Assembly: GCA_031365465.1 (NCBI GenBank)
Contig: JANLYD010000003.1
Location: 1-63,532 of the forward strand
Length of the DNA: 63,532 bases
Direction: 5' to 3'
From: Hyphomicrobiaceae bacterium
Lineage (GTDB): Bacteria > Pseudomonadota > Alphaproteobacteria > Rhizobiales > Hyphomicrobiaceae
The notes beneath the pieces are model-generated. The model was not told where the DNA came from. It did not search any database and was given only the letters and a program-made list of their open reading frames with translations. Position 1 is the stretch's first letter. The number at the start of each line of letters is the position of its first letter. The position numbers were made by a program, and so were the translations under genes. Shown here one piece after another: positions 37,708 through 51,168 of this stretch.

Positions 37708-40700
37708 ACAAGACGTCGGTCGGCCGCGATGACGAGCTGCGACGGGAATATCACGTCCTCAAAGACGACATGCCGCACGAGTTCCGCCTCATCGTCAGCA
37801 AACTGGAGAACGATAAGGTCAGCCGTGGAATGCTGTATGGCAATGCGATCGAAGGCCTCGGCGCGATGACCTACGCGATTGCGATTGCGGTCGCGGCGGC
37901 ACATTCTGACGAAAAGGGCCGTGAGCGGAGGCTACTGCTGTGGAACAAGCTTAATGAGCCGAAACACAGGGCACTGGTGGAGAATCTCGGCAGCGATCAG
38001 CATTACATAAGATTGTGCGGCAAGCCCCTAAGCGACCTGTTCGAGGAAGTCGACCGCCAAAAATCCTTCAGCGGCATTCTCAACGATATCCTTCTGACAG
38101 CGAAAAGCATCGAGAGCGGCGTCCGATCCAGCGGCGAGGGCGATATATATGCCGAACTCGAGAACCTAAAACGAGAGTCACCTGATGGCACCTACGAGCA
38201 GCGTAGCCGGTTTGGCAACTCGCTCTATCATTTGGTGTGTGAGCTGTTCTGGTACTGGCCGCGCTATTCACTCGGATTTCTGGACGCTAACTCAAACCCG
38301 CCACGGGTCGAATTCGACACCGACGAACTTGGTGATCTGGTGTTGACCGAGACGCAGCGCGACAAATTCAAGTTCGACGTCGTTACGCGCGACAACAGAT
38401 GGATAAAACCGATGGTCGAACGGGGTCGGGTCCACATCGGCCCCGACCACGTCGAGGCGATCGACCCCGACCGCGTCCGCACGGTCTTTCTCGCCGACCA
38501 GATAGAGCGCAAGATCTATATGATCAGCCCGTTCCTCTTCAATTACGTCACGTCGGCGAAGGGTGCGCAAAATGTGAAATCCAAGTACCTGTTCCTTGAA
38601 CCGAATTGGTCACTCGCGAGTGGCGGGTTGATGTGGAAGACGTTTAACGATCTGGAGAAAGACGAGCATCGCGGACCGACACTGCCTGGTGGCGAAATCG
38701 GGCCAAGTCTCGAGCAAAGTCAAGACGGGCGCTGGCAGTCCTTCGTGAAGGGTTTACTGGAGCGTCCCTGCCAAGTCGCGCTTGAGACAGCCGGTGAGGC
38801 ATCGCAAGAGCGCGCCGTCTTCGACCACCTCAGGAACCAGTTGAGCAAAGTCCGCTTCGAACCAACGACCGGGAACGCCTACAAAGTTGCGGAGAAATCG
38901 GCGAAACCCCGCCTGTTCTACAAAACGGGCGCGTCGATCTATGTCGAAGTTGTCGAGGACGTCCCGAACGGCCGCACGGCTGTAGCCAAGGTTCTGCAGC
39001 CGAGCGTCATGGGTATTACGCATGTCGAACTTGATCGCTTCCCACGTGAAGTGACTTTTTTGAAAGCGTATTTCAGCTCACCGCAGATCGGCGCTAATGA
39101 TACGCGTTTGATCGGCAGCGGTATTGTCCAGTTTCTGGCCGAAGGGAAGACTACGGCGGGGGACGACGGCACCGCTGGGGCCAATTCGGACCGGCAAGGC
39201 GAAACAGCGGAGCGCGCGCGCAAGAGTACTGGAAAGGCGCGATCCGTCGACTTCTCCAATTGCTCGTTCTACGTCCGAGAGAAAATTGAAGAGAACCTGC
39301 GGGATGTCATCAACGAGGTCGAGCGTGAGCAACGCCGTGGTGTGCGCGGCACGGTACCCCGATCTTTGCCTGCCAACCGCGAGTCGATTGCCGTTGGCCG
39401 GCGCATTCTTCGCGCTCTCTATATCATCGAGCGTGCGGCGACGACACTCGAGCGCATCTATTCGGAGCCGAAGTCGCCAGAACTAGAGGCGCGGCTCGGC
39501 GACAACAAGGACGCACACTTTATTCATCGCGACATCCGGCCAGAAGTGATTCTTCACGCCGGTGGCGGGCTGATAAAGATCTGCGATTTTTCCGCAGCTT
39601 ATTTTCCCGGCCGCGACACTCATCGCGCACTCACAGACGACGAGGTAGGCCATGGCGCAGGGACTGCGCTGTTACTAGATAGTTTCGGCATGTCGTCCGA
39701 TTATTGCGCGCCAGAAGTTTACGTGCGTCCGGACGCCTACAGCCCGACTGCCGATGTGTTTTCGCTCGGCATCATTCTCAACGAATTGCTGTTCGGCAAA
39801 CGCAAGAACGTACAGCGTCACATTTGGGAGTGGCGAAAGACAGCCGGGGAGGAGCGCGATTGGAAGGACAAGCTATACGACGCGCCAGAGGGCGCCGAGC
39901 AAAGGGCCGACGAGCGCATCAAGTCCGCAGAGACAAGCGGCACACCCAGCCGATTCGATTTGCGCGAGCTTGTCGCGCGTTCGACGTGCCACCACACTCA
40001 ACGCTGGTCGATGTCGGAGTTTCGCGACAATGTCGCGGCGGCAAGTGTGATCGTCAGGGAGTTTTTGGCCGCCGAGACGAGGAAGGTAATCGCCGACGCG
40101 CGCAAAAGCGCAGCCCCCAAAGAACTGCAGGATGCGATAAGGTTCACCGCCGAGGCTTTCGGCTATGACGGGCGCACCCTCAAACCGACATCAATGGTCC
40201 GCTGCGCCGCCTGCTATGGCTGTAAGGAATTCACCTACGACAGCGACGAGCCGGAATTCTATGCGTGCCACAAAGACGGCATGTCGAAGGCCATCGCCGA
40301 CCTGAAGCAGGTGACAGACGGCGTCAACTCGGGGGCACAGCCCTCCGCCGACGCTACGGATCAGCTGGTTCGGCCTTTGACGCACGAGCAGGCGAATATT
40401 GTTCTTGGAGCGCTCGAGGCCGGCCTTACCATCTGTTCTGGCGTCGTCGATCGTGTTTCCGACGAGTTGGAGATTTTGGTAGGACGCCCAATCCCCGGCG
40501 GCGAGCGCGCCGAAGGCGAGTTCGATAAGCTTCGACCGCACCGCAGCTTCAACAGCCTCAGCGAAAAAATCTTCGTAGCTGCCGCTTACCCCGGGGGGGT
40601 GACAGTTGCTGATCCGGTCCAAGTTACCAAGCCGGCCGCCAGGGATACGCAGTTCGCTGAGGAACTGTTAATGCTGATAGGACGAGCCAGCGGCGTACAA

Positions 40701-40745
40701 ACGGGCGAGATTGCCAAGCTGCTCGATGTGCCGCGGCCAGACTAG
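37704..40745 (+). CDS. 1013-aa multidomain protein with a central degenerate Hanks-type protein-kinase-like core
   Basis: ATGA overlap with the carbamoyltransferase stop. AVAKVL lysine (38988-38990), HRDIRPEVIL (HRD at 39525-39533), DFS (39595-39603), APE (39708-39716), FSLGIILNELLFG. The N-terminal 400 aa or so and the C-terminal 250 aa or so have no motif I recognise, apart from a Cys cluster CAACYGCKEF...FYACH and a terminal HTH-like GVQTGEIAKLLDV. Confidence 0.7.
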   Translation: MNKTSVGRDDELRREYHVLKDDMPHEFRLIVSKLENDKVSRGMLYGNAIEGLGAMTYAIAIAVAAAHSDEKGRERRLLLWNKLNEPKHRALVENLGSDQHYIRLCGKPLSDLFEEVDRQKSFSGILNDILLTAKSIESGVRSSGEGDIYAELENLKRESPDGTYEQRSRFGNSLYHLVCELFWYWPRYSLGFLDANSNPPRVEFDTDELGDLVLTETQRDKFKFDVVTRDNRWIKPMVERGRVHIGPDHVEAIDPDRVRTVFLADQIERKIYMISPFLFNYVTSAKGAQNVKSKYLFLEPNWSLASGGLMWKTFNDLEKDEHRGPTLPGGEIGPSLEQSQDGRWQSFVKGLLERPCQVALETAGEASQERAVFDHLRNQLSKVRFEPTTGNAYKVAEKSAKPRLFYKTGASIYVEVVEDVPNGRTAVAKVLQPSVMGITHVELDRFPREVTFLKAYFSSPQIGANDTRLIGSGIVQFLAEGKTTAGDDGTAGANSDRQGETAERARKSTGKARSVDFSNCSFYVREKIEENLRDVINEVEREQRRGVRGTVPRSLPANRESIAVGRRILRALYIIERAATTLERIYSEPKSPELEARLGDNKDAHFIHRDIRPEVILHAGGGLIKICDFSAAYFPGRDTHRALTDDEVGHGAGTALLLDSFGMSSDYCAPEVYVRPDAYSPTADVFSLGIILNELLFGKRKNVQRHIWEWRKTAGEERDWKDKLYDAPEGAEQRADERIKSAETSGTPSRFDLRELVARSTCHHTQRWSMSEFRDNVAAASVIVREFLAAETRKVIADARKSAAPKELQDAIRFTAEAFGYDGRTLKPTSMVRCAACYGCKEFTYDSDEPEFYACHKDGMSKAIADLKQVTDGVNSGAQPSADATDQLVRPLTHEQANIVLGALEAGLTICSGVVDRVSDELEILVGRPIPGGERAEGEFDKLRPHRSFNSLSEKIFVAAAYPGGVTVADPVQVTKPAARDTQFAEELLMLIGRASGVQTGEIAKLLDVPRPD

Positions 40746-40749
40746 TCGA

Positions 40750-43002
40750 ATGTTGTATGGTGATAATGGAACGGGACGTGCTTCGATGAGTGGGCAAAAA
40801 AATAAAGCAATGGACGAGTTGAAGCGGCATGCGCGCACCATGAAGGGAGTGCAGGCGACGCTACTCGCCCAGGCAGAGGGAGATAAACTCAAGGTCTCCG
40901 ACTACGAGATAGACAGGGACAACGCGCAGGATGCCATCATGCCGCGCATCTTTGCGCTCGATTCCGCGCTTATTCCCTTTTCGGCCGTCACGCCCATCAG
41001 TCGGCGCCTGGAGAAAGATGCCAAGTTCGTCGATTTAGCGGCGAGCCTGCGCCGCGACCGCGACATACGCGACCTACTCTCGGTGAGCTCGAGCGACACC
41101 GGCCGGCGAATACTCGAACTCAGTCGTGACCGCCTCGATGAGACGCTCACTTTCATCGAGAACGCAGTCAAAGGCAATTCTGCCGTGCCGGCACCCTATG
41201 GCACGTTTGTCGATTTTGACATGCTTGTTTGGGCCCTCGGCTACGTTCTCGATCTGAAAACCACGCTCTCGCAGTCCAACACTGCCAAATCTCAATCGAC
41301 CGACAGTGATGAGACAATACGAATCGAGACACTGGTCAAGGAGGGACTTGCGGCACTTATTCAGCGCGGTCAGGAAGGCCTTGCATCCTCCGAATTGCGA
41401 CACGGCTGGTACGCCAGCCTGGAGACAATGGAGTCGCTGTTCGAGCAGCGCGGAACCTTTAAAGGTACTGCCGGCAAGGATAGAATCAGCAACCGCAAAG
41501 ATAATTTGTCAAAAGCGTTTGTGCGGCATCAACAGAAACTCGATCCGCTACTGCTCGAGATCGTCGATAGTCCGGCGTTCGTCGAGTCGATATTCGTGGC
41601 GACGCGCGCGATCTGTGTGTTCGTGTCGATAGCGAAGGAAGTCGCGGAGGAGGCAGAACGCGAGTCGGGCGTCGCGAGCGAGACCTCGCTGTCCGCCTAC
41701 TTCACAGACCTCGAAACCGAGGTGTTCCGTCAAGACTCCTTCGGTCAATTCTGCCTGACACAGCTCAAGAAATATACGCTGGACCGCCAGGGGCGGCCGC
41801 TGCCGCTCGATCACTACGACCCGTTCATCCACTTGACCGGCATCCTCGCGTTCGCACTGGCTGAGGGCTATTTCTCGCCAACTGATGACGATGGCAAGCC
41901 AATGACCGAGAGCCTGCGGCCGAAGTTTGTGGAAATCGGCTTTGCTAACCGGACGGCGATCATCGACGCAATCGTGGATACCTTTGAGGGCCCGCTCATC
42001 CAGGCGCTCGGCGACCAGTTGAACCCGATAAACATCGAGGAAAACCGCTTTGTTGCGACGGCCGAACTTCACCGCCTGTTCGACGGTGACGGCAACCTCA
42101 TGCTGCTCGACAACGTGCAAAAGAAGTCCGGGATCGAGCGAGATCCCAACGACAAAAGCCCAACCGCTTACCTCGACCGCCGCAATCACTCGTTCACTTA
42201 CCTCGTGGCGCTTCCCATCGCACTCAAGGGTCTCGCGCAAATGGTGCGTGAAGAACTTATGAGCCGCCTGCTGGAAACGCCAAGTACGGAGTGGAAAACC
42301 GCCGCGGCCAAGTTGCCCAACTGGGTCGGGCGCGTCGAGACCATGTGCGGCAAGCTCGTCAAGACACTGTACGATGTCAATATCAACAAGGAGGGGGACA
42401 AACGCATTGGGGTATGGAAGGGCAAGCCGTCCTGGAGCGTGACCGCCGCAGTTGTCGATGCCCTCAGTGTGTGGATGGGGGTGCTGACGTGCCGGGTCGC
42501 GATTGAACTGGCATCCGGCGAGGCCGAGGAAACGCTCACGGAGGGGATCGACTTTCCGAGCAGCGATATTGGTGTCGTCAAGGACTTCTTTTCTCTGCTC
42601 ACGAAATATACATCGCCCCCACCCGCACCGCCTGTGCAGACGCAGCCGGAAAGCCCTGCGGTCGAGCCGAGCCTGCTGCAATGGCTGAACTCGATCAAAA
42701 CGGTGGCCGATGTCGGAATCTTTTATAATCCAAGCTCGAATGCCGGTTTTACGACGACCCTCGGTCCGGAGCAGGTGCTAAAGACGGTCAAGCTCATAAA
42801 GTTCATTTCCGACCGCATGAAGGACGAGACGACATACGCAGAAGTCGAAGAGTACGTTTGCACAAAGTTGATCAAGGACCTGCGGAAAGAAGTCAGGGCG
42901 TCGGGCAAGATGACTGTCGAATCCGTGTTCCAGACACTGGAAAACCGACTTAAAGAAAAATATCCGACCGCATTCCGGAACCAGACGAAGGGCCGGGATT
43001 AA
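40750..43002 (+). CDS. 750-aa hypothetical protein, no recognisable catalytic motif
   Basis: ATG 40750 lies 4 nt after the upstream stop, and the long ORF shows island-type composition. Mostly helical-looking sequence with a short Pro-rich linker (SPPPAPPVQTQPESP). Confidence 0.6.
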   Translation: MLYGDNGTGRASMSGQKNKAMDELKRHARTMKGVQATLLAQAEGDKLKVSDYEIDRDNAQDAIMPRIFALDSALIPFSAVTPISRRLEKDAKFVDLAASLRRDRDIRDLLSVSSSDTGRRILELSRDRLDETLTFIENAVKGNSAVPAPYGTFVDFDMLVWALGYVLDLKTTLSQSNTAKSQSTDSDETIRIETLVKEGLAALIQRGQEGLASSELRHGWYASLETMESLFEQRGTFKGTAGKDRISNRKDNLSKAFVRHQQKLDPLLLEIVDSPAFVESIFVATRAICVFVSIAKEVAEEAERESGVASETSLSAYFTDLETEVFRQDSFGQFCLTQLKKYTLDRQGRPLPLDHYDPFIHLTGILAFALAEGYFSPTDDDGKPMTESLRPKFVEIGFANRTAIIDAIVDTFEGPLIQALGDQLNPINIEENRFVATAELHRLFDGDGNLMLLDNVQKKSGIERDPNDKSPTAYLDRRNHSFTYLVALPIALKGLAQMVREELMSRLLETPSTEWKTAAAKLPNWVGRVETMCGKLVKTLYDVNINKEGDKRIGVWKGKPSWSVTAAVVDALSVWMGVLTCRVAIELASGEAEETLTEGIDFPSSDIGVVKDFFSLLTKYTSPPPAPPVQTQPESPAVEPSLLQWLNSIKTVADVGIFYNPSSNAGFTTTLGPEQVLKTVKLIKFISDRMKDETTYAEVEEYVCTKLIKDLRKEVRASGKMTVESVFQTLENRLKEKYPTAFRNQTKGRD

Positions 43003-43085: not shown

Positions 43086-44159
43086 ATGAGCAAGGACGCC
43101 CAGCGGGCACCTCAAATCCCGATCGTCAACATCGTGAGCTACTCCTACAAGGGCGGCTCTGGACGGTCGACGGCAAGCGTGAACATCGCCTTTTCGCTAG
43201 CAAAGCAGGGCAAGCTGGTCGTCTGCCTCGACATGGATGTCGGCGCTGCCGGGCTGCACATGATCATCAGCGACTGGGATGAGAAAACAAAGACGCACGT
43301 CGCAGCAAACCGGGACGAGATCGGGCATCAGCTCTTCTTCAATGCGTCCAACGAACCTTCAATCAATCAGCTCGCGCCAGCGCTCATCGACATCGACAAG
43401 GTCACCGGAGTGGCTCATGTCGGAATCGGCGAGAACCCGGGCCGTCTGCTGTTTGCGTTCAGCTCGACCAAGGATAGGGCGTTGAAGGACCTCAACAACG
43501 ATAGCGACGGTGCCCGGGCCTTCAAGCAGAAATATCTGCGCCTGCAGCAACTCCTGGCAAGGGAAGTCGGCGGCACCGCCGACCGCGAAGTGTATTTCAT
43601 CGTCGACGCGCCCAACGGGATAACCAATGTGAGCCTGCCTCTACTGAAATGCGCCGACCTTATCCTGATGTTCTATCGTTATAGCTTGCAACACGTGCAA
43701 GGCACTGTCGAAGCTGGCGACAAATTGATCTTCTATCTGCGCGACGAGTATGAAAAGCGGCCGTACATGCGGCTCCTGCTGGTCGGCTCATGCGTGCCCG
43801 AGCGGATCATCGAGAATTTGCGGCAGCATGCCGATAGCCTTGAGCCGTACGAGCGCGAAATGCTCGATAAATTCAATAGTACCCAGGCAAATCTCGAGGC
43901 CTTCGCGGACGATTATCCGCTGCAGGTCGAGCTGTTACCGATGCATCAGCGCATCGGCGAGGACGATCTTTTGAAGATCTTGGAGCAGCCAATCACAAAC
44001 GCCAAAGGTGTGCGCAATGCCGTTCTCGGTTATCCCGAGATCGGTTGGCCTGCGTCGAGTTCGGCCGGCACCATGGACCGCATTACCGCAATCGCAAACC
44101 TGCTTGGCCAGCATGGCCCCGAGATCGCACGCGAGAAGAAGCGCCGCTATGGCGGGTGA
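43086..44159 (+). CDS. ParA/MinD-like P-loop ATPase with variant Walker A (KGGSGRST)
   Basis: Deviant Walker A in SYSYKGGSGRSTASVN, with Arg codon 43164-43166 where the P-loop Lys is expected. CLDMDV switch region and Walker-B-like YFIVDAPNG. 357 aa. Confidence 0.7.
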   Translation: MSKDAQRAPQIPIVNIVSYSYKGGSGRSTASVNIAFSLAKQGKLVVCLDMDVGAAGLHMIISDWDEKTKTHVAANRDEIGHQLFFNASNEPSINQLAPALIDIDKVTGVAHVGIGENPGRLLFAFSSTKDRALKDLNNDSDGARAFKQKYLRLQQLLAREVGGTADREVYFIVDAPNGITNVSLPLLKCADLILMFYRYSLQHVQGTVEAGDKLIFYLRDEYEKRPYMRLLLVGSCVPERIIENLRQHADSLEPYEREMLDKFNSTQANLEAFADDYPLQVELLPMHQRIGEDDLLKILEQPITNAKGVRNAVLGYPEIGWPASSSAGTMDRITAIANLLGQHGPEIAREKKRRYGG

Positions 44160-44193: not shown

Positions 44194-45480
44194 ATGGCTG
44201 ATGACATCTTCTTGTCGTACCGACGGTCACAGGAACGCAAGGTCGAGGAACTGGCCAATTTCCTCAAGGCTGTCGGCTACAGAGTCTTCATGGATATCAA
44301 AGGTCTGGAGGTCGGAGTCGACTGGTGGAAGCAGTTGCAAGACAAGCTCCGCGAAGTGAAGCTAGTGATAGTTTGCGTATCCAGCGACGCCTTAAGCGAT
44401 GGCTCGGTTGTCTTAAGAGAATTAGAGCTGGCGATCGGTCAAAACAAGTTGGTTCCCCTTTATATCGAGAATGTAAAGTGGAACGAAAACCTCAAACATC
44501 TGCATTCCGTGAGTATTGCGCAATGGGACGGTGACCCTCATCACCGGCAGGTTACCGAGCTCGTTAAGCAGCTGAGAGGAAAAAAATGCTTCGGGAGTAA
44601 TTCCGCTTCTGAAGAGATGGTGCGTGAGAAACTAAAGGAAATCCGCACGTTTGTTGAGACGTACAAATCTGCCTGGAATCCCAACGGTGATGTCGCCACG
44701 ATTCAACCCCTCGAGTTTCAGTCAATCATCGCACCTCCAACACGGCGGATTGAAAAGCTGGAATTCATCCAAGGCGCCGGGAATACCGAGGCCGGTGCAC
44801 TCGATCAGGAACTTCCGCGTCGCGCCGTGCGACTTCGCGCCTTTGAGATCGGCGTGACAACCGTGACGGTGGGACAATGGGCAGAATACGTTGCGTCCGG
44901 CCAGAGCGGGAGAGCAATGCCGGCTGACGATTACCCCGGCACGACAGTCTTGTGGTCCAAAGCTTTCGAGTATCCGATGGTCCGCGTTTCCTGGCACGAG
45001 GCACGCGAGTATACGGCCTGGTTGAGCACAATCACTGGAAGCAGATATCGCCTTCCAAGCGAGAGCGAATGGGAATGTGCGGCGCGGGCTGGACACGGGG
45101 GGCGCATCTTTGGATGGGGTGACGATATCGTCCCGGAGCACGCTATCTACAACTGGTCGAAATCCTACCAGGGTGGGCGGACGAAACGGCCCCCGCCCAG
45201 TGGGCCGCGGCCAGTGCAGCGCGGAACCGCCAACGATTTCGACCTCCATGATCTGCACGGCAACGTCAAAGAGTGGGTGGCGGACGTCCTCAGGCCCTAT
45301 GACCCCGAGCATTGCGACGGAAGCGTCGTCGGCGATCCGGGGATGCCGGAAGGCCGTGCCGTTGTCCGCGGTGGTTCGTGGCGCAGCGACCCCGCCAAAT
45401 TGCGATCGGCTTGGCGCGAACCTTATCCCGCAGACTGCGGCGACGACGAGATTGGCTTTCGCATCGTGCGCGAGCTATAG
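44194..45480 (+). CDS. TIR domain fused to a formylglycine-generating-enzyme (FGE/SUMF1)-like domain
   Basis: N-terminal TIR pattern: DIFLSYRRSQE ... GYRVFMD ... VKLVIVCVSSDAL ... VLRELELAI, with a candidate catalytic Glu at about 44419-44421. C-terminal FGE-sulfatase pattern: RVSWHEAREYTAWLS, YRLPSESEWECAARAG, GNVKEWVAD, VVRGGSW, GFRIVREL. Confidence 0.8.
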   Translation: MADDIFLSYRRSQERKVEELANFLKAVGYRVFMDIKGLEVGVDWWKQLQDKLREVKLVIVCVSSDALSDGSVVLRELELAIGQNKLVPLYIENVKWNENLKHLHSVSIAQWDGDPHHRQVTELVKQLRGKKCFGSNSASEEMVREKLKEIRTFVETYKSAWNPNGDVATIQPLEFQSIIAPPTRRIEKLEFIQGAGNTEAGALDQELPRRAVRLRAFEIGVTTVTVGQWAEYVASGQSGRAMPADDYPGTTVLWSKAFEYPMVRVSWHEAREYTAWLSTITGSRYRLPSESEWECAARAGHGGRIFGWGDDIVPEHAIYNWSKSYQGGRTKRPPPSGPRPVQRGTANDFDLHDLHGNVKEWVADVLRPYDPEHCDGSVVGDPGMPEGRAVVRGGSWRSDPAKLRSAWREPYPADCGDDEIGFRIVREL

Positions 45481-45521: not shown

Positions 45522-46463
45522 GTGACACGTGTTTCTGGCGCCGCGCCGACTAAAGGCGAGGGCAAGATCGATAAGACATTCTACCGCATTTCGACCGGCA
45601 TTTCCGTTGCACGCGCGGTGCTTGTCGTTTCGCTTTACCTTGCGATCGGCGTCGCGGCGTTGGTCACCGACAGCAATGTCGGATACGCGCTGGCTGCCTT
45701 GCCCCTGGCGTTCGCACAGCAGTTTTTTTTCAATGCCCTACACTATTGTACGCACTCGACGTTCGTTCGGTCTCGGGCGATCAACAACGTGTTGGGTATT
45801 GCCTTCGGCTGCCTGTCGATCATGAACTTCGCGCTCTATAAGCCGTATCACCTCCAGCATCACCGCCATCTGGGAACTGATCAGGATCCGGAACCGCATC
45901 CGCGTTCATTTGCGACACGAGCGCAATATCTCCGCGAGATGCTCATGCCCCACTTCTTTATCGACAACTGGATGAGCAGCTTAAAAACCCTAACGCGCTC
46001 TCTCGGACTCGCTTGGTTTGGCTCGCACGAGCGATACCTCCTTCATGTCTCGCGGGTGTCGGTCAATTTCAACAGCTTTTTGTTGTTCGTCTGGGTTTCA
46101 GCGCTGTTGGGGTTGACCTTGATGTATGGGCGGCAGGTTTTTTGGCTCTATTGGGTTCCACTCGGGCTGAGCTACGTGCTCGCCAATCTGGTCATACTGC
46201 CCGAGCATTATCGCACCGATCCGGTCCTCGGACGCAATCTGGAGAACAGCCGTACTGTTTCAGCGGGCGCGTTCGCTAGGTTTTTCATCGTGAACATGAA
46301 TTTTCATGCCGAGCATCATCTTTACCCAGGCGTTCCATTTCACAATCTTTCGCAATTGAACAGGCGGATCGGCAGCGGGGTAAAGCATCGCGACCAGTCT
46401 TTCTTTGCATTCCATCGCGACGTTTTCAGGTCGCTGCCATGGAAAAAGCATCGCGAAGCTTGA
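45522..46463 (+). CDS. membrane fatty-acid desaturase-family protein
   Basis: GTG 45522 lies 6 nt after GGAG. Three His boxes (HYCTH, HLQHH, HAEHH) and TM segments. The upstream part of the track ORF overlaps the TIR-FGE gene and is discarded. Confidence 0.75.
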   Translation: MTRVSGAAPTKGEGKIDKTFYRISTGISVARAVLVVSLYLAIGVAALVTDSNVGYALAALPLAFAQQFFFNALHYCTHSTFVRSRAINNVLGIAFGCLSIMNFALYKPYHLQHHRHLGTDQDPEPHPRSFATRAQYLREMLMPHFFIDNWMSSLKTLTRSLGLAWFGSHERYLLHVSRVSVNFNSFLLFVWVSALLGLTLMYGRQVFWLYWVPLGLSYVLANLVILPEHYRTDPVLGRNLENSRTVSAGAFARFFIVNMNFHAEHHLYPGVPFHNLSQLNRRIGSGVKHRDQSFFAFHRDVFRSLPWKKHREA

Positions 46464-46478: not shown

Positions 46479-47213
46479 TCAAACCAACGTCCGGCAATGC
46501 GCGAGGAGTTCGGCGTTCGCGACAGCCGCCCCGGGCTCGGGCCTAGCCCGAAATACAATACTTGTAGGCGTTCCGCCGAGTACCACGACTTCGTCGGCGA
46601 GGCGCACTGCATCCTCGACGTCATGGGTGACAAAGACCACGCTTCCCACTTTGCCCTCCGTATAAAGATCTCGCACGAGCGTGCCGAGATGCCGGCGGTT
46701 TCCGACGGCAAGCGCGCCGAACGGTTCGTCGAGCAGCAGGACATGGGGGTCCTGGGCCAAGGTGCGAGCAAGGGCCACGCGCTGGCGCATGCCACCCGAC
46801 AGTTGGTCCGGACGCGCACGTCCATTCGTCTCGAGCTTGACGGTTCGGAGTAGCTGGTTCGCACGGGCAAGCCGGTCGGATTTGGACAAACCGGAACGCG
46901 CGAGGCCGAGGGTGACATTGCCGATGACCGACTTCCATGCAAGCAGGTCGTAGGACTGAGACATGTAGCCGATGCCCGAAACGGGCCCGTCGATCGGCCG
47001 ACCGTCAAACAAGACCTGGCCCTGGTCGGGATGTACAAAGCCAGCGAACATCCGCAGCAAGGTTGATTTTCCGCAACCGGAGACGCCGAGAATGGCAATG
47101 AAGTGTCGTTTGGGGATAACAAGATTCAGATCGCTAAATAGGGCGCGAGCGCTGCCACCGCTCGTAACCTGCTTGTGGATCCCGACGAGTTGCAAGCCCC
47201 CCCGCGCACTCAT
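46479..47213 (-). CDS. ABC transporter ATP-binding protein (nitrate/sulfonate/taurine type)
   Basis: [38 protein letters not shown]. Confidence 0.85.
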   Translation of the reverse strand: MSARGGLQLVGIHKQVTSGGSARALFSDLNLVIPKRHFIAILGVSGCGKSTLLRMFAGFVHPDQGQVLFDGRPIDGPVSGIGYMSQSYDLLAWKSVIGNVTLGLARSGLSKSDRLARANQLLRTVKLETNGRARPDQLSGGMRQRVALARTLAQDPHVLLLDEPFGALAVGNRRHLGTLVRDLYTEGKVGSVVFVTHDVEDAVRLADEVVVLGGTPTSIVFRARPEPGAAVANAELLAHCRTLV

Positions 47214-48001
47214 GATGCCTGCCGAACCTCATTCATCCACGGGAACAGGCGCGGGTACAGGCGGCGAAGCACATAATCGATCACGAGGCCGACCACGGCG
47301 ATCAACAGGATGATCGCCAGAACTCGCGGTATCTCCAGGAACCGTTGCGCCGTGATCAGCGACTGGCCAAGGCCGTGCGTTGCCCCGACAATTTCCGCCA
47401 CCAGCAGGTAGGACCATGCCCAGCCGATTGCGACACGCGATCCATCGTAAATCTGTGGGCTCGAGTACGGTAGCACGGCGTGAACCAGCGTCTCGAACCT
47501 GCCGAGGCGTAACGACTGGCAGAGTTCGATTGTGCTCGTTGGCAGGCGACTTGCCGCGTCCGCGATCAGCACGATCAATTGTGGTAACGTGCCGAACACA
47601 ATGACCCCGATCTGGCTAGTGTTGCCGAGGCCGAGCCAGAGAATCATCAATGGCACCATCGCGGGAACAGGAACGTAACGGACGAAGTCATTGAGCGGCT
47701 GGAGCAAGCGCCGAGTTGGACCGTGGAGCGCCAAAGCTACACCGAGCGGCAGCGCGATCAGGAACGAAATTATGAAACCAGCAAATATGCGGGCGGTGCT
47801 GACTGCGAGGTCCAAAAGCAGCGAACCGGACGCCAATCCAGCGACCAGCGACTGGAAGACGGACTGGGGGGACGGTAGGAAGACTTCAGGCACCGATCCC
47901 CATGTTGCCGCGACAAACCAGACCGTCAAGACGATCGCAAAAGGCAAGAGGCTGGCGAGGCCGGACTCGCCCGCCTTGATTGGTCGCTGGCTCTGAATCA
48001 T
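47210..48001 (-). CDS. ABC transporter permease (SsuC/TauC-like)
   Basis: 6-TM BPD-type permease. Start and stop overlap the neighbouring genes. Confidence 0.8.
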   Translation of the reverse strand: MIQSQRPIKAGESGLASLLPFAIVLTVWFVAATWGSVPEVFLPSPQSVFQSLVAGLASGSLLLDLAVSTARIFAGFIISFLIALPLGVALALHGPTRRLLQPLNDFVRYVPVPAMVPLMILWLGLGNTSQIGVIVFGTLPQLIVLIADAASRLPTSTIELCQSLRLGRFETLVHAVLPYSSPQIYDGSRVAIGWAWSYLLVAEIVGATHGLGQSLITAQRFLEIPRVLAIILLIAVVGLVIDYVLRRLYPRLFPWMNEVRQAS

Positions 48002-48969
48002 CGAACGAAGTCGCTGGTGGTTGCGGATGACAAGTCGGGCATCGTTTTAATAAGCTTGGCTTCGCGCCAAATTTTCAATGCTAGCGCCAGCGTGCTTGCC
48101 GCTTGGCCCTGTGGAGCCAGGTATTGCCGATTGGCGTCGGCGCCAAGAAAACGGACCCCGCCAACCATGTCGCCTACCGCTTCGGGGCTCAGAGAGAAGT
48201 ATTTGCCGACGATGGCATTCGCCTCGGCCGGGCTGGCTTGCCAGAATTCGATTGCTTTGGTTAGCCCGTTGACGAGGCTGCGAACGTCCTCCGGACGGCG
48301 CTTCATTACAGCGGGATGGGCGATAAGGGCATCGACCATTATACTCGGATGATCCTTGCTCGAAACCAGCAGCCTGCCCTTGCCCTGCTCCTTTGCGCGC
48401 GACAACCAGGGCTCCCACGTCACTGCGGCATCAAGTTTACCGCTGACGAAAGCGGCGCCAGCTTTGTCCGCGTCGAGATTAATGTGCGTGTATTGCGAGG
48501 GCGCAATATTGGCCGTCGACATCAAATAGAGGAGAAAGAAATGATTGGGGTTTCCGGTTTGCGCGGCGACCGTCTTGCCGCGCAAGTCGGCGAGACTCTT
48601 GATCCCGTCACGCGCAATTATCCCGTCGGCGCCAGCAGATTCGTCAAACAGATACACGACCTTGCCCGGCACGTTCCGAGAAGCGGCGATCGCGAATGTG
48701 TCAAGCGTGGTGCAATAGCCGTCGAGGTCACCGCGTAACATCGCGCTGTTGAAAACGTTCGAATCGTCACTACGCCGGAGTTCGACGTCGAGGCCGGAGA
48801 AGAAACCCTTGTCCCGACCAATGTAGAGGGCGCCATAACCGATCCATGTCGGCACCCCGATACGAAACTTTCGCGGCGTCTGCGCGACCGCGCTCAGAGG
48901 CCGCGCTGCCACCGACATAGCGGCGGCCACTAAACTCGCGCCGCGCACCCACTCCCGACGTGTTATCAT
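47998..48969 (-). CDS. periplasmic substrate-binding protein (NMT1/SsuA-like) with Tat-type leader
   Basis: The leader MITRREWVRGASLVAAAMSVAARPLSA carries a twin-Arg. The overall pattern is that of nitrate/sulfonate/bicarbonate-family binding proteins. Confidence 0.75.
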   Translation of the reverse strand: MITRREWVRGASLVAAAMSVAARPLSAVAQTPRKFRIGVPTWIGYGALYIGRDKGFFSGLDVELRRSDDSNVFNSAMLRGDLDGYCTTLDTFAIAASRNVPGKVVYLFDESAGADGIIARDGIKSLADLRGKTVAAQTGNPNHFFLLYLMSTANIAPSQYTHINLDADKAGAAFVSGKLDAAVTWEPWLSRAKEQGKGRLLVSSKDHPSIMVDALIAHPAVMKRRPEDVRSLVNGLTKAIEFWQASPAEANAIVGKYFSLSPEAVGDMVGGVRFLGADANRQYLAPQGQAASTLALALKIWREAKLIKTMPDLSSATTSDFVR

Positions 48970-49288
48970 TGCAATCGCACTCTCAAAATTGTGACTCCGT
49001 CATTCACCATAGCCCCCGACCGGGCTGCCGTCTCGCAAAAGGTTGTCTGCGGAGCAATGCATTTTTCACCGTGTCATATTTTCCGGAAAGGAAGCCGGGC
49101 CCAGGATCGCGCCCACGCCTTCTTGCCGGAGGTCGCGATGAGTATCAGTGTGTTGTCGGACGTTTCGGCGGCCGCGATACCTGGAGACAGACGCTCGTTG
49201 CGGCGGGGGCCATCTCGACGTGACCTCGCAATTCCGTCACGATGCTGATTACAATTATTCAGTCCACACATTAGTGACGGAACTTAAA

Positions 49289-50533: not shown

Positions 50534-51168
50534 AAATAGGCGTTACCGGACATCGGCCAAAGCGGATTGATATCGGTCTGGATCGCATCGAGGCGCGCGT
50601 AACGGAGGCGCTGCACTTATTGCTCGGCGCGTCTCACGTCGCGGAGGCCGGTGCTAAACCGATAGAGGCAATTTCTGCGCTGGCAGAAGGGGCGGATCGT
50701 GTGTTTGCCAAAGCCGCGCTAGCAGTCGGATGCGAGTTGCATGCTGTGTTGCCGTTCGCATCGCCGGAATACGAAACGACTTTCTCGGATGCATCCGAGC
50801 TGCCTGCTTATTTTGCGCTGTTGGCGCAGGCCAAGACTGTAACGGAGTTGGCGGGCACACTGGCGGATGCAGATGTTGCATACGAGGTGGCTGGCCGACT
50901 TATCGCGGATCAATCGGATGTTCTGTTTTGCGTTTGGGACGGACAGCCGGCGGCCGGACGCGGAGGCACGCCAGAGATCATTCAATATGCGCTCAGTAAC
51001 GGCAGATCCGTCGTCTGGATCGATGCATCGCGTGACAGATCGCCCTTGCTGCTGGAGGCATCAATCACGGATGCGTTCACGCTGGTCGACATCGACGCTG
51101 TTGCGCACAGTGCCGCCACGCTAACGCAACATCTGCTCGAGAGGGTCTTTGGCCAGGCGCGCACGTAG
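50530..51168 (+). CDS. stand-alone SLOG/DprA-LOG-like Rossmann protein (hypothetical)
   Basis: ATGA overlap with the patatin stop. N-terminal strand KIGVTGHRP, then ALAEGADRVFAKAAL and VWDGQPAAGRGGTPEII. This resembles the GxxGxD...A and DG...GGT motifs of SLOG-superfamily proteins. Assignment is from motif reading only. Confidence 0.5.
   Translation: MKIGVTGHRPKRIDIGLDRIEARVTEALHLLLGASHVAEAGAKPIEAISALAEGADRVFAKAALAVGCELHAVLPFASPEYETTFSDASELPAYFALLAQAKTVTELAGTLADADVAYEVAGRLIADQSDVLFCVWDGQPAAGRGGTPEIIQYALSNGRSVVWIDASRDRSPLLLEASITDAFTLVDIDAVAHSAATLTQHLLERVFGQART

What the first reader, a model, noticed from the sequence alone, without database searches (positions are those of the whole stretch)
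44194..45480. TIR-FGE/SUMF1 fusion with the lowest G+C in the window
Seen: the N-terminal 140 aa or so match the bacterial TIR pattern (DIFLSY ... VIVCVSSDAL ... LRELELAI). The C-terminal 230 aa or so match the FGE-sulfatase fold pattern (WHEAREYTAWLS, YRLPSESEWE, GNVKEWV, RGGSW, GFRIV). Hand G+C counts on lines 44401 and 44581 are 29 and 25 of 60, the lowest I sampled anywhere in the window.

Established: TIR Glu-dependent NADase or cyclase activity underlies several bacterial immune systems.

Inference: the TIR is the effector or signal generator and the FGE-like domain is a sensor. I could not tell by eye whether the FGE catalytic Cys pair is retained.
Basis: partly seen in the sequence, partly recalled or inferred. 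Interest (0 to 1): 0.65.

Follow-up and report, generated by a model that had tools for sequence, protein, structure and literature searches.

The report
TIR enzyme fused to FGE-like sensor
The gene is real and encodes a probable bacterial immune protein: an NAD-cleaving TIR domain joined to a non-enzymatic FGE-type binding domain. The fusion is already catalogued, but here it closes a rare, undescribed gene cassette and lies near a SLOG-patatin pair that could read its signal.

Summary
ORF 44194-45480 (+, 428 aa) has an N-terminal TIR_2 domain and a C-terminal FGE-sulfatase-like domain. Its TIR+linker part is the lowest-GC 400 bp of the window (0.48 against 0.62).

- **Catalytic residues.** The TIR catalytic Glu (E76) is kept. 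The FGE Cys pair is lost, here and in all 17 full-length homologues aligned, so the domain is a binding module (closest to PvdO) and not a sulfatase maturase.
- **Negative checks.** I found no TM segment, no DGR template and no sulfatase on the contig.
- **How common it is.** The fusion is common and computationally described (Kaur/Aravind FGS proteins). This scan has noted it before on other DNA (43 notes in at least 39 genomes).
- **New: a cassette.** The gene is the last member of a rare cassette: NodU-like carbamoyltransferase, pseudokinase, a 738-aa orphan and a ParA-like protein with KGGSGRS. Another very divergent copy of the cassette (L020) also ends in a TIR-FGE gene. The orphan family has 19 representatives among 1.84 billion proteins.
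- **New: SLOG neighbours.** TIR-FGE genes sit beside SLOG-domain genes in three other loci. In this window a SLOG-like protein plus a patatin lipase lie 3.7 kb downstream.

Most likely this is a ligand-gated TIR enzyme serving as the output of a multigene conflict system, possibly signalling Thoeris-style. Nothing here has been tested experimentally.

The parts
44194..45480 (+). TIR-FGE(FGS) fusion gene, 428 aa; soluble, with no TM segment or signal peptide
   Evidence: ORF; Pfam; maximum 19-residue Kyte-Doolittle hydropathy 1.43; AF2 model with mean pLDDT 72, TIR and FGE cores at 75-92.
44206..44535 (+). TIR_2 domain match (PF13676)
   Evidence: The closest solved relatives by sequence are the TIR-APAZ proteins of short-pAgo/SPARTA systems (E 4e-5), followed by SARM1 TIR.
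44419..44421 (+). Codon GAA for Glu76, the predicted catalytic glutamate of the TIR domain
   Evidence: Aligns with the Glu of the VLKEL motif of TIR-APAZ. Invariant column E76 in the 18-sequence alignment A2. Codon read.
44569..44769 (+). Low-complexity, partly helical linker between the two domains; with the TIR it forms the G+C minimum of the window
   Evidence: pLDDT 36-54 for residues 131-176 with a predicted helix at 140-160; G+C 0.49.
44770..45471 (+). FGE-sulfatase-like domain (C-type-lectin-type fold), non-catalytic
   Evidence: Pfam 1.1e-44. Best solved match is PvdO 5HHA, by sequence 5.9e-20 and by Foldseek 5.4e-18 with TM 0.74 on the target. The best NCBIfam match is the PvdO model, scoring 101.5 bits against a cut-off of 500.
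45367..45381 (+). RGGSW motif; the stretch after it, where FGE carries its two catalytic Cys, reads RSDPAKLRSAWR with no Cys
   Evidence: Alignment to S. coelicolor FGE 6MUJ; consensus RGGSWxxxPxxLRSAxR in 18 TIR-FGE proteins.
35764..37707 (+). NodU/CmcH-type carbamoyltransferase, first gene of the conserved cassette; its stop overlaps the next gene's start
   Evidence: Pfam Carbam_trans_N and Carbam_trans_C; 68% identical to its counterpart in L014; NCBIfam NodU 2e-40, far below the cut-off.
37704..40745 (+). 1013-aa protein with a degenerate protein-kinase core (HRDIRPEV, DFS)
   Evidence: Pfam Pkinase covers only residues 604-700. It is 37% identical to the 973-aa L014 protein, which keeps the same HRDIRPE motif. 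It is fused to the orphan domain in P0132 and P0137.
40786..43002 (+). 738-aa all-alpha orphan protein, the marker of the cassette
   Evidence: No Pfam, NCBIfam, PADLOC or PDB match. 19 representatives among 1.84 billion proteins. The AF2 model is poor, with pLDDT 50.
43086..44159 (+). ParA/MinD-like P-loop protein whose Walker A reads KGGSGRS (Lys replaced by Arg), conserved in all three cassette copies
   Evidence: Pfam CbiA, ParA and MipZ. NCBIfam AAA_KGGVGR at 4.7e-16, below the cut-off. 53% and 50% identical to the L014 and L020 proteins, which carry the same KGGSGRST.
45564..46463 (+). Membrane di-iron desaturase/hydroxylase-family gene following the TIR-FGE stop; start uncertain (45522 is also possible). 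Linked to the cassette in L014 too.
   Evidence: Pfam FA_desaturase. Best NCBIfam match is GntB arginine hydroxylase at 1e-19, far below the cut-off. 53% identical to the L014 gene.
46479..48969 (-). NMT1-type ABC importer (ATPase, permease, binding protein), linked to the cassette in L014 as well
   Evidence: Pfam; 49-63% identical to the L014 genes, which lie on the other side of the cassette there.
49148..50533 (+). Patatin-like phospholipase, a candidate executioner
   Evidence: Pfam Patatin 1.2e-21; PADLOC CBASS-type phospholipase effector 3.2e-34; NCBIfam CBASS_lipase 2.3e-27, below the cut-off.
50530..51168 (+). 212-aa SLOG-superfamily protein overlapping the patatin stop, a candidate receptor of a TIR-made nucleotide
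   Evidence: Of 11 aligned family members, 8 hit DprA (best 5.7e-4) and 5 hit the YAcAr SLOG family (best 1.4e-6). Weak profile hits to the DprA and YpsA structures. Homologues sit next to patatin, DUF4231 and TIR genes.
51419..51508 (-). tRNA-Ser(UGA) at the right edge of the lower-GC segment; its 3' 20 nt are repeated exactly at 51325-51344
   Evidence: ARAGORN; direct repeat D3.

Best explanation
The gene encodes a cytoplasmic, two-module conflict (immune) protein. The C-terminal FGE-like domain has lost the enzyme's cysteines and serves as a binding or sensor module (an 'FGS' domain in the sense of Kaur et al. 2020). The N-terminal TIR domain keeps its catalytic glutamate and is the enzymatic output. 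On ligand-driven clustering it would cleave NAD+, either depleting it or making an ADP-ribose-derived signal.

The protein does not act alone. It is the conserved last gene of a rare cassette made of a carbamoyltransferase, a pseudokinase, a 738-aa orphan and a ParA-like protein with KGGSGRS (plus an arginine decarboxylase in relatives). The large, apparently non-catalytic proteins of that cassette most likely form the regulatory scaffold that controls it.

The neighbouring SLOG-like protein and patatin lipase are the best candidates for a downstream receptor and executioner.

What is shown: the domains, the residue states, the conserved linkage to the cassette, and the recurrence of TIR-FGE genes next to SLOG genes. 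What is inferred: enzymatic activity, the ligand, the direction of information flow, and the immune role itself.
For: Domains and residues:
- TIR_2 and FGE-sulfatase score above the Pfam cut-offs.
- E76 aligns with the Glu of the VLKEL motif of TIR-APAZ and is invariant in 18 homologues.
- The FGE Cys pair is absent.
- The closest fold is the non-FGE protein PvdO.

Linkage to the cassette:
- L014 carries carbamoyltransferase (68% identity), pseudokinase (37%), orphan (35-38%) and ParA-like (53%) in the same order.
- L020, from an unrelated metagenome, carries orphan (32%), ParA-like (50%), PvlArgDC and then TIR_2+FGE-sulfatase. The TIR-FGE start lies 3 nt after the PvlArgDC stop and has a GAGGGAG Shine-Dalgarno.
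- In the window the gap between the ParA-like stop and the TIR-FGE start is 34 nt.
- Identities give the grouping (window,(L014,L020)). TIR-FGE therefore sits on both sides of the deepest split.
- An AU test does not reject the two cassette-linked TIRs being sisters (p 0.51).
- The pseudokinase and the orphan are fused into one chain in P0132 and P0137.

Immune flavour:
- PADLOC's best TIR hits are pAgo-TIR and SAVED-TIR effectors.
- The segment has lower G+C and ends at a tRNA-Ser with a repeated 3' end.
- The L014 copy lies next to relaxase, TrwB and BrnT genes.
- The genome holds 11 TIR ORFs.

SLOG link:
- TIR-FGE genes lie beside SLOG-domain genes in L012, L090 and L091.
- G1098 (the L090 genome) has only two FGE loci in 5 Mb, and one of them abuts its single SLOG-like gene.
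Against: - There is no experiment on any TIR-FGE protein or on this cassette.
- Only three independent cassette copies could be inspected. One of them (L014) ends in a DUF4384 protein instead of a TIR-FGE.
- Full-length TIR-FGE homologues also occur alone among housekeeping genes (P0017, P0041), so the family can work without this cassette.
- The cassette contains enzymes that look metabolic: a NodU-like carbamoyltransferase, a GntB-like hydroxylase and an ABC importer, plus PvlArgDC in relatives. It matches no known defence model apart from weak P-loop and kinase hits.
- The SLOG-patatin pair is separated from the TIR-FGE gene by four genes, three of them on the other strand.
- The nearest SLOG-like homologue (L017, 54% identity) sits between GST and RNase R genes, with no TIR found within 10 kb.
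- The TIR tree is unresolved and both cassette-linked TIRs are long branches.
- The Trp usually found four residues before the catalytic Glu is Val here. SPARTA TIRs also lack that Trp.
Confidence: 0.55

Rival explanations
1. Thoeris-like signalling is the core, and the cassette is a bystander. TIR-FGE would be the ThsB-type sensor. Its FGS domain detects an invader and its TIR makes a cyclic or linear ADPR-derived signal. The 212-aa SLOG-like protein binds that signal and switches on the translationally coupled patatin phospholipase, killing the cell by membrane damage.
For: - The SLOG-like assignment is supported at family level by YAcAr, DprA and YpsA hits.
- The patatin matches CBASS-type lipase effectors.
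- Among 20 SLOG-like loci from the same order, patatin is adjacent in 5 and lies 3 kb away in a sixth, and TIR ORFs lie within 8 kb in 6.
- A TIR+FGE fusion is the divergent neighbour in L090 and lies 2.3 kb away in L091.
- L012 interleaves three TIR-FGE genes with two SLOG cluster2 proteins.
- L019 (Novosphingobium) has ThsB_TIR, an 8xMP membrane protein and a SLOG-like protein in a row.
- 'SLOG Patatin' is listed as a putative Thoeris effector type in Yirmiya et al. 2025 (Table S2).
Against: - The two modules are 3.7 kb apart, with a desaturase and a three-gene ABC operon on the opposite strand between them.
- The TIR partners listed for 'SLOG Patatin' in that preprint are short ThsB-type TIRs, not TIR_2-FGE proteins, and the two cloned operons gave no defence in E. 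coli.
- The window TIR does not hit Pfam ThsB_TIR.
- The genome has 10 other TIR ORFs that could serve the SLOG protein.
- This reading does not explain why TIR-FGE recurs at the end of the cassette in L020.
- Co-location in defence islands can arise without direct coupling.
Confidence: 0.3
2. A self-contained single-gene abortive-infection protein. The FGS domain senses a phage or invader molecule and the TIR domain depletes NAD+ directly. All neighbours, cassette and SLOG-patatin alike, are functionally unrelated island cargo.
For: - The TIR_2+FGE architecture is common: 43 of the 120 listed hits carry the TIR.
- It is found alone in unrelated housekeeping contexts.
- The TIR is most similar to NAD-depleting effector TIRs such as SPARTA TIR-APAZ and SAVED-TIR.
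- Yirmiya et al. treat stand-alone TIR proteins as probable NAD+ depleters.
- A second, unlinked TIR-FGE paralogue exists in this genome on contig C372.
Against: An independent, very divergent copy of the cassette again has a TIR-FGE gene directly downstream with operon-like spacing. With about one or two such genes per genome, that is very unlikely by chance. The recurrence next to SLOG genes also argues for partners.
Confidence: 0.25
3. A metabolic or biosynthetic reading. The cluster makes or imports an arginine-derived small molecule, using the carbamoyltransferase, the GntB-like hydroxylase and the ABC importer, plus PvlArgDC in relatives. The FGE-like domain would be a PvdO/EgtB-type enzyme or metabolite-binding domain in that pathway, and the TIR would play a regulatory or self-protection role.
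For: - The desaturase-like gene and the ABC transporter are linked to the cassette in both the window and L014, at a divergence similar to that of the cassette genes.
- The best NCBIfam hit of the desaturase-like protein is the arginine hydroxylase GntB.
- PvlArgDC keeps its SS self-cleavage motif in L014 and L020.
- The closest characterised relatives of the FGE-like domain (PvdO, EgtB, SenA, OvoA) act on amino-acid-derived small molecules.
Against: - All NCBIfam scores are far below the family cut-offs.
- The FGE-like domain lacks the Cys pair.
- The protein has no DinB-type iron-binding domain of the EgtB/OvoA kind; its N-terminus is a TIR.
- A pseudokinase, a ParA-like protein with Lys replaced by Arg, and a TIR are not typical biosynthetic parts.
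- The FGE-like domains that recur with N-terminal TIR, caspase and kinase modules are predicted to be sensors in the literature.
Confidence: 0.08
4. A genuine sulfatase maturase (FGE) or a DGR-diversified receptor.
For: The FGE-sulfatase HMM match is strong. The genome has five sulfatase-family ORFs and three reverse-transcriptase hits. The T. denticola DGR target TvpA is a structural neighbour.
Against: Both catalytic Cys are missing and no sulfatase lies on this contig. No second copy or template-like repeat of the FGE-coding DNA exists anywhere in the 4.8-Mb assembly, even with 7-nt words and E up to 10. No repeats of it occur in the island either. The assembly is 94% complete, so a template on a missing contig is not strictly excluded.
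Confidence: 0.02

Closest known systems
FGS-domain (FGE-sulfatase-like) proteins of bacterial NTP-dependent conflict systems (Kaur, Burroughs, Iyer, Aravind 2020, eLife, PMC7159879)
   Same: A C-terminal FGE-like C-type-lectin-fold domain with functionally diverse domains always N-terminal to it. TIR is among the partner domains. The same paper notes that (often inactive) S/T/Y kinase domains tend to be coupled with inactive MinD/ParA domains, which parallels the pseudokinase and KGGSGRS ParA-like genes here.
   Different: Those systems are built on vWA-MoxR-VMAP or iSTAND cores and are often DGR-linked. No vWA, MoxR, VMAP, STAND or DGR part was found here. The carbamoyltransferase, the 738-aa orphan and PvlArgDC are not mentioned in that paper.
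Thoeris (ThsB TIR sensor plus SLOG-containing effector), including the putative 'SLOG Patatin' and 'SLOG and 4TM' types of Yirmiya et al. 2025 (bioRxiv 10.64898/2025.12.03.692087)
   Same: A TIR protein with a catalytic Glu lies in the same island as a SLOG-superfamily protein coupled to a patatin lipase. In relatives, TIR-FGE genes abut SLOG-DUF4231 and SLOG cluster2 genes.
   Different: The TIR is of the TIR_2 type and carries a 240-aa FGE-like domain; it is not a ThsB_TIR. It is not adjacent to the effector pair. SLOG and patatin are two genes here. The listed SLOG-Patatin operons gave no defence when tested.
DGR-diversified CLec/FGE 'antigen sensor' proteins of multicellular bacteria (Doré et al. 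2024, PNAS, PMC10907252) and TvpA (PDB 2Y3C)
   Same: The same fold is used as a C-terminal sensor. N-terminal TIR, peptidase or kinase modules occur, as does domain shuffling. TvpA is a detectable structural and sequence neighbour.
   Different: No template repeat and no nearby RT. No STAND or vWA module in the protein.
PvdO (PDB 5HHA), a FGE-fold protein of pyoverdine maturation
   Same: It is the closest solved structure and sequence for residues 190-428 (E 5.9e-20; Foldseek 5.4e-18). The query stretch aligned to PvdO contains no Cys.
   Different: PvdO is, from memory, a periplasmic stand-alone protein. This domain is cytoplasmic and fused to a TIR. The NCBIfam PvdO equivalog scores 101.5 bits against a cut-off of 500.
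TIR-APAZ of short-pAgo SPARTA systems and SARM1 TIR (NAD+ hydrolases)
   Same: They are the closest solved TIRs by sequence, and the Glu of their VLKEL motif aligns with E76. PADLOC's best hits are the same class.
   Different: Similarity is low (E about 4e-5) and covers only about 83 residues. There is no APAZ, pAgo or SAM/ARM context.
STAND NTPases with FGE-sulfatase-like sensor domains (Nature 2026, PMC13581612)
   Same: The FGE-like domain is interpreted there as a pattern-recognition sensor.
   Different: There is no NTPase switch between effector and sensor in this protein.

Membership tests
TIR domain enzymes (Pfam TIR_2, PF13676) | HMM match above the curated cut-off | tested here: met
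   68.4 bits against a cut-off of 28; 71.5 bits in the genome scan.
TIR domain enzymes (Pfam TIR_2, PF13676) | Catalytic glutamate in the alpha-C region | tested here: met
   E76 aligns with the Glu of the VLKEL motif of TIR-APAZ and is invariant in alignment A2.
TIR domain enzymes (Pfam TIR_2, PF13676) | NAD+ hydrolase or cyclase activity | not testable with these tools
   Needs a biochemical assay.
Formylglycine-generating enzyme (FGE/SUMF1) | FGE-sulfatase fold and HMM match | tested here: met
   Pfam 1.1e-44; Foldseek hits to 2Q17, 6MUJ and 1Y1E at 1e-14 to 1e-16.
Formylglycine-generating enzyme (FGE/SUMF1) | Two catalytic, copper-binding cysteines after the RGGS motif | tested here: not met
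   The query reads RGGSWRSDPA---KLR where 6MUJ reads RGGSYLCHDSYCNRYR. The first Cys is replaced by Ser and the second falls in a gap. No Cys occurs at these columns in any of the 18 TIR-FGE proteins.
Formylglycine-generating enzyme (FGE/SUMF1) | Sulfatase substrate gene nearby | tested here: not met
   Five PF00884 ORFs in the genome, none on contig C253.
EgtB/OvoA/SenA sulfoxide or selenoxide synthases | N-terminal DinB-type iron-binding domain plus the C-terminal FGE-like domain; equivalog score | tested here: not met
   The N-terminus is a TIR and Pfam finds no DinB domain. NCBIfam EgtB scores 68 bits against 360 and SenA 72 against 420.
PvdO | Equivalog-level similarity | tested here: not met
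   NF051459 scores 101.5 bits against a cut-off of 500. The protein has no signal peptide or TM segment.
Thoeris | TIR gene next to an effector gene with a signal-binding domain (SLOG, Macro and others) | tested here: inconclusive
   The SLOG-like protein and the patatin lie 3.7 kb downstream and are not adjacent. Adjacency is seen for TIR-FGE relatives in L090 and L012.
Thoeris | ThsB-type TIR (PF08937 or the PADLOC ThsB models) | tested here: not met
   No PF08937 hit for the window protein. PADLOC ThsB hits are weak, at 3e-4 and 1.2e-3.
DGR variable proteins | Template repeat matching the C-terminal variable region, with an RT nearby | tested here: not met
   No second copy in the genome. 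The RT hits are on other contigs.
vWA-MoxR-VMAP / iSTAND ternary systems and STAND-FGS proteins | vWA, MoxR AAA+, VMAP or STAND NTPase component in the protein or operon | tested here: not met
   Pfam scans of all genes from 33.0 to 54.4 kb show none.
Cassette: carbamoyltransferase, pseudokinase, orphan, ParA-like (undescribed, defined here) | Same-strand order with the orphan-family protein and a KGGSGRS ParA-like protein, followed by a variable terminal gene | tested here: met
   Window, L014-L016 and L020.

The most novel reading that the evidence does not exclude
The 35.7-51.2 kb segment is one undescribed multigene immune system with three parts.

1. A pseudokinase, orphan and ParA-like scaffold works with enzymes that make or modify an arginine-derived metabolite: the carbamoyltransferase and the GntB-like hydroxylase, plus PvlArgDC in relatives.
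2. That scaffold controls the FGE-like domain of a TIR enzyme.
3. The TIR's nucleotide product then triggers a split SLOG-patatin executioner.

This would make an FGE-fold domain a metabolite- or modification-gated switch for TIR signalling.
Probability: 0.12. Interest if true: 0.85.

Novelty: new variant of a known kind. Interest (0 to 1): 0.5.

Why it matters
TIR-FGE/FGS fusions are among the commonest predicted bacterial 'sensor plus TIR' proteins. The paper searches run here found no experimental study of one, and neither the ligand of the FGE-like domain nor the TIR product is known.

This locus offers two concrete handles.
- A conserved set of partner genes, the cassette, that may control the protein.
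- A nearby SLOG-patatin pair, together with SLOG neighbours of relatives. These suggest that the family feeds Thoeris-type nucleotide signalling instead of simply burning NAD+.

If either link holds, it would extend Thoeris-like signalling to a very large, uncharacterised TIR family. It would also assign a role to a rare cassette of apparently inactivated kinase and ParA proteins. If neither holds, this is one more member of a catalogued architecture.

Tried and rejected
- **Sulfatase maturase.** Rejected: the Cys pair is absent and no sulfatase lies on the contig.
- **DGR target.** Rejected for this assembly: no template-like copy of the FGE DNA, even with 7-nt words, and the RT hits lie on other contigs.
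- **Membrane receptor layout,** as in several relatives with a TM segment between TIR and FGE (and L090). Rejected here: no hydrophobic segment.
- **Widening the orphan family through the word-indexed search with an 11-sequence profile.** This returned only the two known proteins. The exhaustive HMMER search gave 19 representatives, but under the tools' rules their contigs could not be looked up, so I did not try.
- **Looking for the cassette elsewhere.** Not found in 400 genomes of the family or 400 of the phylum, nor in plasmid records or viral contigs. One metagenome locus was found (L020).
- **TIR phylogeny, to ask whether the two cassette-linked TIRs are sisters.** Unresolved, with long branches. 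The AU test does not reject sisterhood (p 0.51), which is weak evidence.
- **AF2 model of the 738-aa orphan from three sequences.** pLDDT 50, all-alpha, and too poor for a fold search. A profile search against the PDB found nothing.
- **Promoter and terminator scan of 35.4-51.6 kb.** Counts equal chance, so it gives no information on operon boundaries.
- **PADLOC PDC-M28B and NCBIfam AAA_KGGVGR hits of the ParA-like protein.** These are P-loop-region or below-cut-off matches. No PDC-M28 partner was found, so I do not file the cassette there.
- **Literature search for the cassette or for 'KGGVGR'.** Nothing relevant.
- **Low G+C as proof of recent transfer of the gene.** Not supported as stated. 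Only the TIR and linker are low. Their GC3 is only moderately reduced, and the TIR is rich in Lys, Ile, Asn and Phe.


Full report

Yes. A single open frame runs from 44188 (TTG) or 44194 (ATG) to 45480 on the + strand; it is 428 aa from the ATG. Pfam finds TIR_2 (E 1.1e-18, 68.4 bits against a cut-off of 28) at nt 44206-44535. It finds FGE-sulfatase (E 1.1e-44, 153.5 bits against 23.3) at nt 44770-45471.

Over 400 bp the minimum of the whole window is 44271-44670 at 0.4825, against a window mean of 0.617. The dip belongs to the TIR (0.498) and the linker (0.491) only. The FGE part is at 0.634, typical of the genome. The whole 35.7-51.3 kb stretch is a few points lower than its flanks.

**2. 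Anatomy of the protein**

- *TIR.* The closest solved relatives by sequence are the TIR-APAZ proteins of short-pAgo/SPARTA systems (E about 4e-5), followed by SARM1. In that alignment the query's VVLRELELA pairs with GVLKELAVA. This puts query Glu76 (codon 44419-44421) on the Glu of the VLKEL motif, which from memory is the residue reported as catalytic in TIR-APAZ. In an alignment with 17 full-length TIR-FGE homologues, E76 is one of only six invariant TIR positions. The Trp that most homologues have four residues upstream is Val here, as it is in the SPARTA TIRs.
- *Linker.* Residues 130-185 are a low-confidence, partly helical linker. There is no hydrophobic stretch (maximum 19-residue hydropathy 1.43, inside a TIR strand) and no signal peptide. 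Both domains are therefore cytoplasmic. Several homologues differ in this respect and carry a TM segment at this place.
- *FGE-like domain.* The best solved match is PvdO (5HHA), by sequence at 5.9e-20 and by Foldseek on the AF2 model at 5.4e-18 with TM 0.74 on the target (mean pLDDT 72, domain cores 75-92). Genuine FGEs, the T9SS ring protein PorK, ToxD, EgtB/OvsA and the DGR target TvpA follow.
- *Loss of the FGE cysteines.* Against S. coelicolor FGE the query reads RGGSWRSDPA---KLR where the enzyme reads RGGSYLCHDSYCNRYR. The first catalytic Cys is Ser and the second falls in a gap. The consensus of all 18 TIR-FGE proteins is RGGSWxxxPxxLRSAxR with no Cys. The EgtB/OvoA type of chemistry needs an N-terminal DinB-type iron domain, which the TIR replaces here. 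All NCBIfam equivalog scores (PvdO 101 against 500, EgtB 68 against 360, SenA 72 against 420) are far below their cut-offs.

The domain is therefore a member of the fold but not of any of the characterised enzyme families.

**3. Sulfatase and DGR**

The genome has five sulfatase-family ORFs, none on this contig.

No second copy or template-like repeat of the FGE-coding DNA exists in the 4.8-Mb assembly, either with the genome tool or with blastn at word size 7 and E up to 10. The three RT hits lie on other contigs. There is thus no evidence of retroelement diversification. One reservation: the MAG is 94% complete.

**4. How common is the fusion?**

Very common. A search of 5.8 billion proteins gave 2,573 hits among the 8,000 candidates scored. 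None is more than 42% identical over the aligned part. Of the 120 listed hits, 43 carry the TIR in front of the FGE-like domain. Others carry PEGA, ankyrin, caspase, kinase, PP2C or nSTAND modules instead.

Full-length relatives (about 30-35% identity) occur alone among glycogen or sulfur-metabolism genes (P0017, P0041). They also occur in a TIR-rich island (P0018).

The architecture is described computationally: Kaur et al. 2020 name the FGS domain and note that other domains are always N-terminal to it. Later work treats FGE-like domains as antigen or pattern sensors. Two full-text searches found no experimental study of a TIR-FGE protein. This scan has already noted the same kind of fusion on other DNA: 43 notes in at least 39 genomes hold the search words. 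The fusion on its own is therefore a further member of a known kind.

**5. What is new: the gene belongs to a conserved, rare cassette**

Upstream on the same strand, with overlaps or short gaps, lie four genes:
- a NodU/CmcH-type carbamoyltransferase (35764-37707);
- a 1013-aa protein with a degenerate kinase core (37704-40745);
- a 738-aa protein with no detectable family (40786-43002);
- a ParA/MinD-like protein whose Walker A reads KGGSGRS (43086-44159).

The TIR-FGE start follows the ParA-like stop by 34 nt.

*Rarity.* The orphan protein has one relative in the word-indexed search. An exhaustive HMMER search of 1.84 billion cluster representatives gave 19. The family was not found in 400 genomes of the same family, in 400 of the phylum, or in plasmid or viral collections.

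*L014-L016.* The relative's contigs show the same four genes in the same order, at 68, 37, 35-38 and 53% identity. They are followed by a pyruvoyl-dependent arginine decarboxylase (PvlArgDC), a DUF4384 protein and then relaxase, Dam and TrwB genes.

*L020.* A third copy, on an unrelated JGI metagenome contig, shows orphan (32%), ParA-like (50%), PvlArgDC and then a TIR_2+FGE-sulfatase gene that runs off the contig end. Its GTG start lies 3 nt after the PvlArgDC stop, behind a GAGGGAG Shine-Dalgarno.

*Grouping.* Pairwise identities group L014 with L020 (41% and 59%) against the window (32-35% and 50-53%). The TIR-FGE gene is thus present on both sides of the deepest split among the three copies. 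The simplest history is an ancestral linkage that was lost or replaced in L014. With one or two TIR-FGE genes among several thousand genes per genome, a chance repeat of this adjacency is very unlikely.

*Phylogeny.* The two cassette-linked TIR-FGE proteins align colinearly at 29% identity. In a TIR tree both are long, unresolved branches. An AU test does not reject their being sisters (p 0.51), which is compatible with co-inheritance but not proof of it.

*Fusions.* Two representatives of the orphan family (P0132 at 1752 aa, P0137 at 1566 aa) carry the kinase-like region and the orphan region in one chain. This argues that those two proteins work together.

*Degenerate motifs.* The kinase loop HRDIRPE and the ParA-like KGGSGRST motif are conserved between copies, so the deviations are features and not decay. 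Kaur et al. report a parallel in actinobacterial ternary systems: usually inactive S/T/Y kinase domains coupled with inactive MinD/ParA domains. No vWA, MoxR, VMAP or STAND part is present here.

**6. A second association: SLOG-domain partners**

I checked this independently.
- The patatin matches CBASS-type lipase effectors.
- The 212-aa protein alone hits nothing significant.
- Of 11 aligned family members, 8 hit DprA (best 5.7e-4) and 5 hit the YAcAr SLOG family (best 1.4e-6). The profile weakly finds the DprA and YpsA structures.
- SLOG-superfamily membership is therefore likely.

*Relatives in the same order.* The domain occurs in 23 of 400 sampled genomes of the order, mostly inside ORFs of 580-770 aa. 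In 20 loci inspected with 8-kb flanks:
- patatin is adjacent in five and 3 kb away in a sixth;
- TIR ORFs are present in six;
- a TIR+FGE fusion is the divergently transcribed neighbour of a SLOG-DUF4231 gene in L090;
- another TIR+FGE fusion lies 2.3 kb from the SLOG gene in L091.

The L090 genome has only two FGE-like loci in 5 Mb, so that adjacency is unlikely to be chance.

*Other loci.* In L012, three TIR-FGE genes are interleaved with two 'SLOG cluster2' proteins, one of them fused to a TIR. In Novosphingobium (L019) the SLOG-like gene follows a ThsB_TIR gene and an 8xMP membrane protein gene. No cassette genes occur in the twenty order loci (L072-L091) screened.

*Counter-evidence.*
- The closest SLOG-like relative (L017, 54% identity) sits between GST and RNase R genes, with no TIR found in the flanks.
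- In the window the pair is separated from the TIR-FGE gene by a desaturase-family gene and a three-gene ABC operon on the opposite strand.
- The genome has ten other TIR ORFs.
- The 'SLOG Patatin' operons listed by Yirmiya et al. 2025 use short ThsB-type TIRs and gave no defence in E. coli.

**7. The rest of the island**

The desaturase-family gene and the NMT1-type ABC importer are linked to the cassette in L014 as well, at 49-63% identity. There they lie on the other side of the cassette. The desaturase-like protein's best NCBIfam match is the arginine hydroxylase GntB, far below the cut-off.

Together with the carbamoyltransferase and, in relatives, PvlArgDC with its SS motif intact, this hints at an arginine-derived small molecule. 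I keep this as a minority reading and as part of the most novel case. The characterised relatives of the FGE-like domain (PvdO, EgtB, SenA, OvoA) all handle amino-acid-derived small molecules, so a metabolite ligand for the FGE-like domain is conceivable.

The segment ends at tRNA-Ser(UGA), whose last 20 nt are repeated exactly 100 bp away. No integrase was seen.

**8. Most likely mechanism**

I commit to the following. The protein is a ligand-gated TIR enzyme of a conflict or immune system. The FGE-like domain binds a trigger or docks onto a partner. Binding brings TIR domains together, and E76-dependent NAD+ cleavage is the output.

The protein is functionally tied to the cassette, whose large non-catalytic proteins (pseudokinase fused or coupled to the orphan, and the Lys-to-Arg ParA-like protein) act as scaffold or regulator. 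I put the confidence for this core at about 0.55.

Whether the output is NAD+ depletion or a signal read by the SLOG-patatin pair is open.
- *For depletion:* the TIR is most similar to effector-type TIRs, and stand-alone relatives exist.
- *For signalling:* TIR-FGE genes recur next to SLOG genes.
- *Estimate:* I put the Thoeris-like flow at about 0.3 as a description of this locus, and a purely self-contained single-gene reading at about 0.25.

What is shown: the domains, the residue states, the conservation of gene order, and the co-locations. Everything about activity, ligand and phenotype is inferred.

**9. Comparison and novelty**

The protein works like the FGS-tailed effector proteins of Kaur et al. 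and like sensor-TIR proteins in general. It fails the membership tests for FGE proper, EgtB/OvoA, PvdO, DGR targets, vWA-MoxR/iSTAND ternary systems and STAND-FGS proteins. It meets only part of the Thoeris definition.

The cassette itself matches no model in PADLOC, NCBIfam or Pfam beyond generic P-loop and kinase hits. I found no paper on it. I therefore rate the finding as a new variant of a known kind: a known fusion recruited as the terminal gene of an undescribed, very rare cassette, with a plausible but unproven SLOG-patatin partner.

Interest is moderate (0.5). The fusion is ordinary, but the locus gives testable partners for a large uncharacterised TIR family.

Noticed in passing
window 37704-40745 and 40786-43002; proteins P0132, P0137: The kinase-like protein and the 738-aa orphan are separate genes here. 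In two distant representatives (1752 and 1566 aa) they are fused into one chain, a Rosetta-stone hint that they form one functional unit.
   Followed up: partly
window 43086-44159; L014 12146-13228; L020 2011-3135: The ParA/MinD-like protein keeps KGGSGRST (Walker A Lys replaced by Arg) in all three cassette copies, which are 50-59% identical to one another. NCBIfam has a 'KGGVGR-motif variant AAA ATPase' model that it approaches (59.7 bits against a cut-off of 90). No paper in the library mentions the motif in this sense.
   Followed up: partly
window 45564-46463, 46479-48969; L014 1-3445: A desaturase/hydroxylase-family gene (best NCBIfam hit GntB arginine hydroxylase, weak) and an NMT1-type ABC importer travel with the cassette in both the window and L014, but on opposite sides of it. 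With the carbamoyltransferase and, in relatives, PvlArgDC, this hints at an arginine-derived metabolite.
   Followed up: partly
genome G000: contigs C416, C166, C299, C97, C354, C372, C262, C41, C356, C264: The MAG carries 11 TIR_2 ORFs with varied tails. By eye these include repeat-rich Sel1/TPR-like tails, a multi-TM region and a possible second nucleotide-binding module. Pfam confirms a second, unlinked TIR-FGE paralogue of 562 aa on C372 (32% identical in the FGE part).
   Followed up: partly
window 51325-51344 and 51425-51444: The 3' 20 nt of tRNA-Ser(UGA) are repeated exactly 100 bp away, an att-like scar at the right edge of the lower-GC segment. No matching repeat was found at the left edge near 35.6 kb, and no integrase was seen.
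   Followed up: partly
L012 (ENA contig of P0018) 2595-15026: A dense TIR island: TIR-NACHT, a truncated FGE ORF, TIR_2 fused to SLOG cluster2, three TIR-FGE paralogues, a stand-alone SLOG cluster2 protein, another TIR protein and an nSTAND1 fragment.
   Followed up: partly
L090 (G1098:C24) 6678-10657; L084 7824-9593: SLOG-like domains fused to DUF4231, which from memory is a SLATT-type membrane domain. In L090 this gene is divergently adjacent to a 650-aa TIR-FGE protein that appears to have a TM segment between its two domains.
   Followed up: partly
L014 13278-14676; L020 3162-3632: A small pyruvoyl-dependent arginine decarboxylase homologue (SS cleavage motif kept) follows the ParA-like gene in two cassette copies but is missing from the window. 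L014 then has a DUF4384 protein where the others have TIR-FGE.
   Followed up: no
window 51684-54410 (-): A 908-aa protein with DUF2793, a GDSL lipase domain and three CHB_HEX_C_1 / Fn3_assoc repeats lies just beyond the tRNA. It resembles a phage- or GTA-type tail-fibre protein.
   Followed up: no
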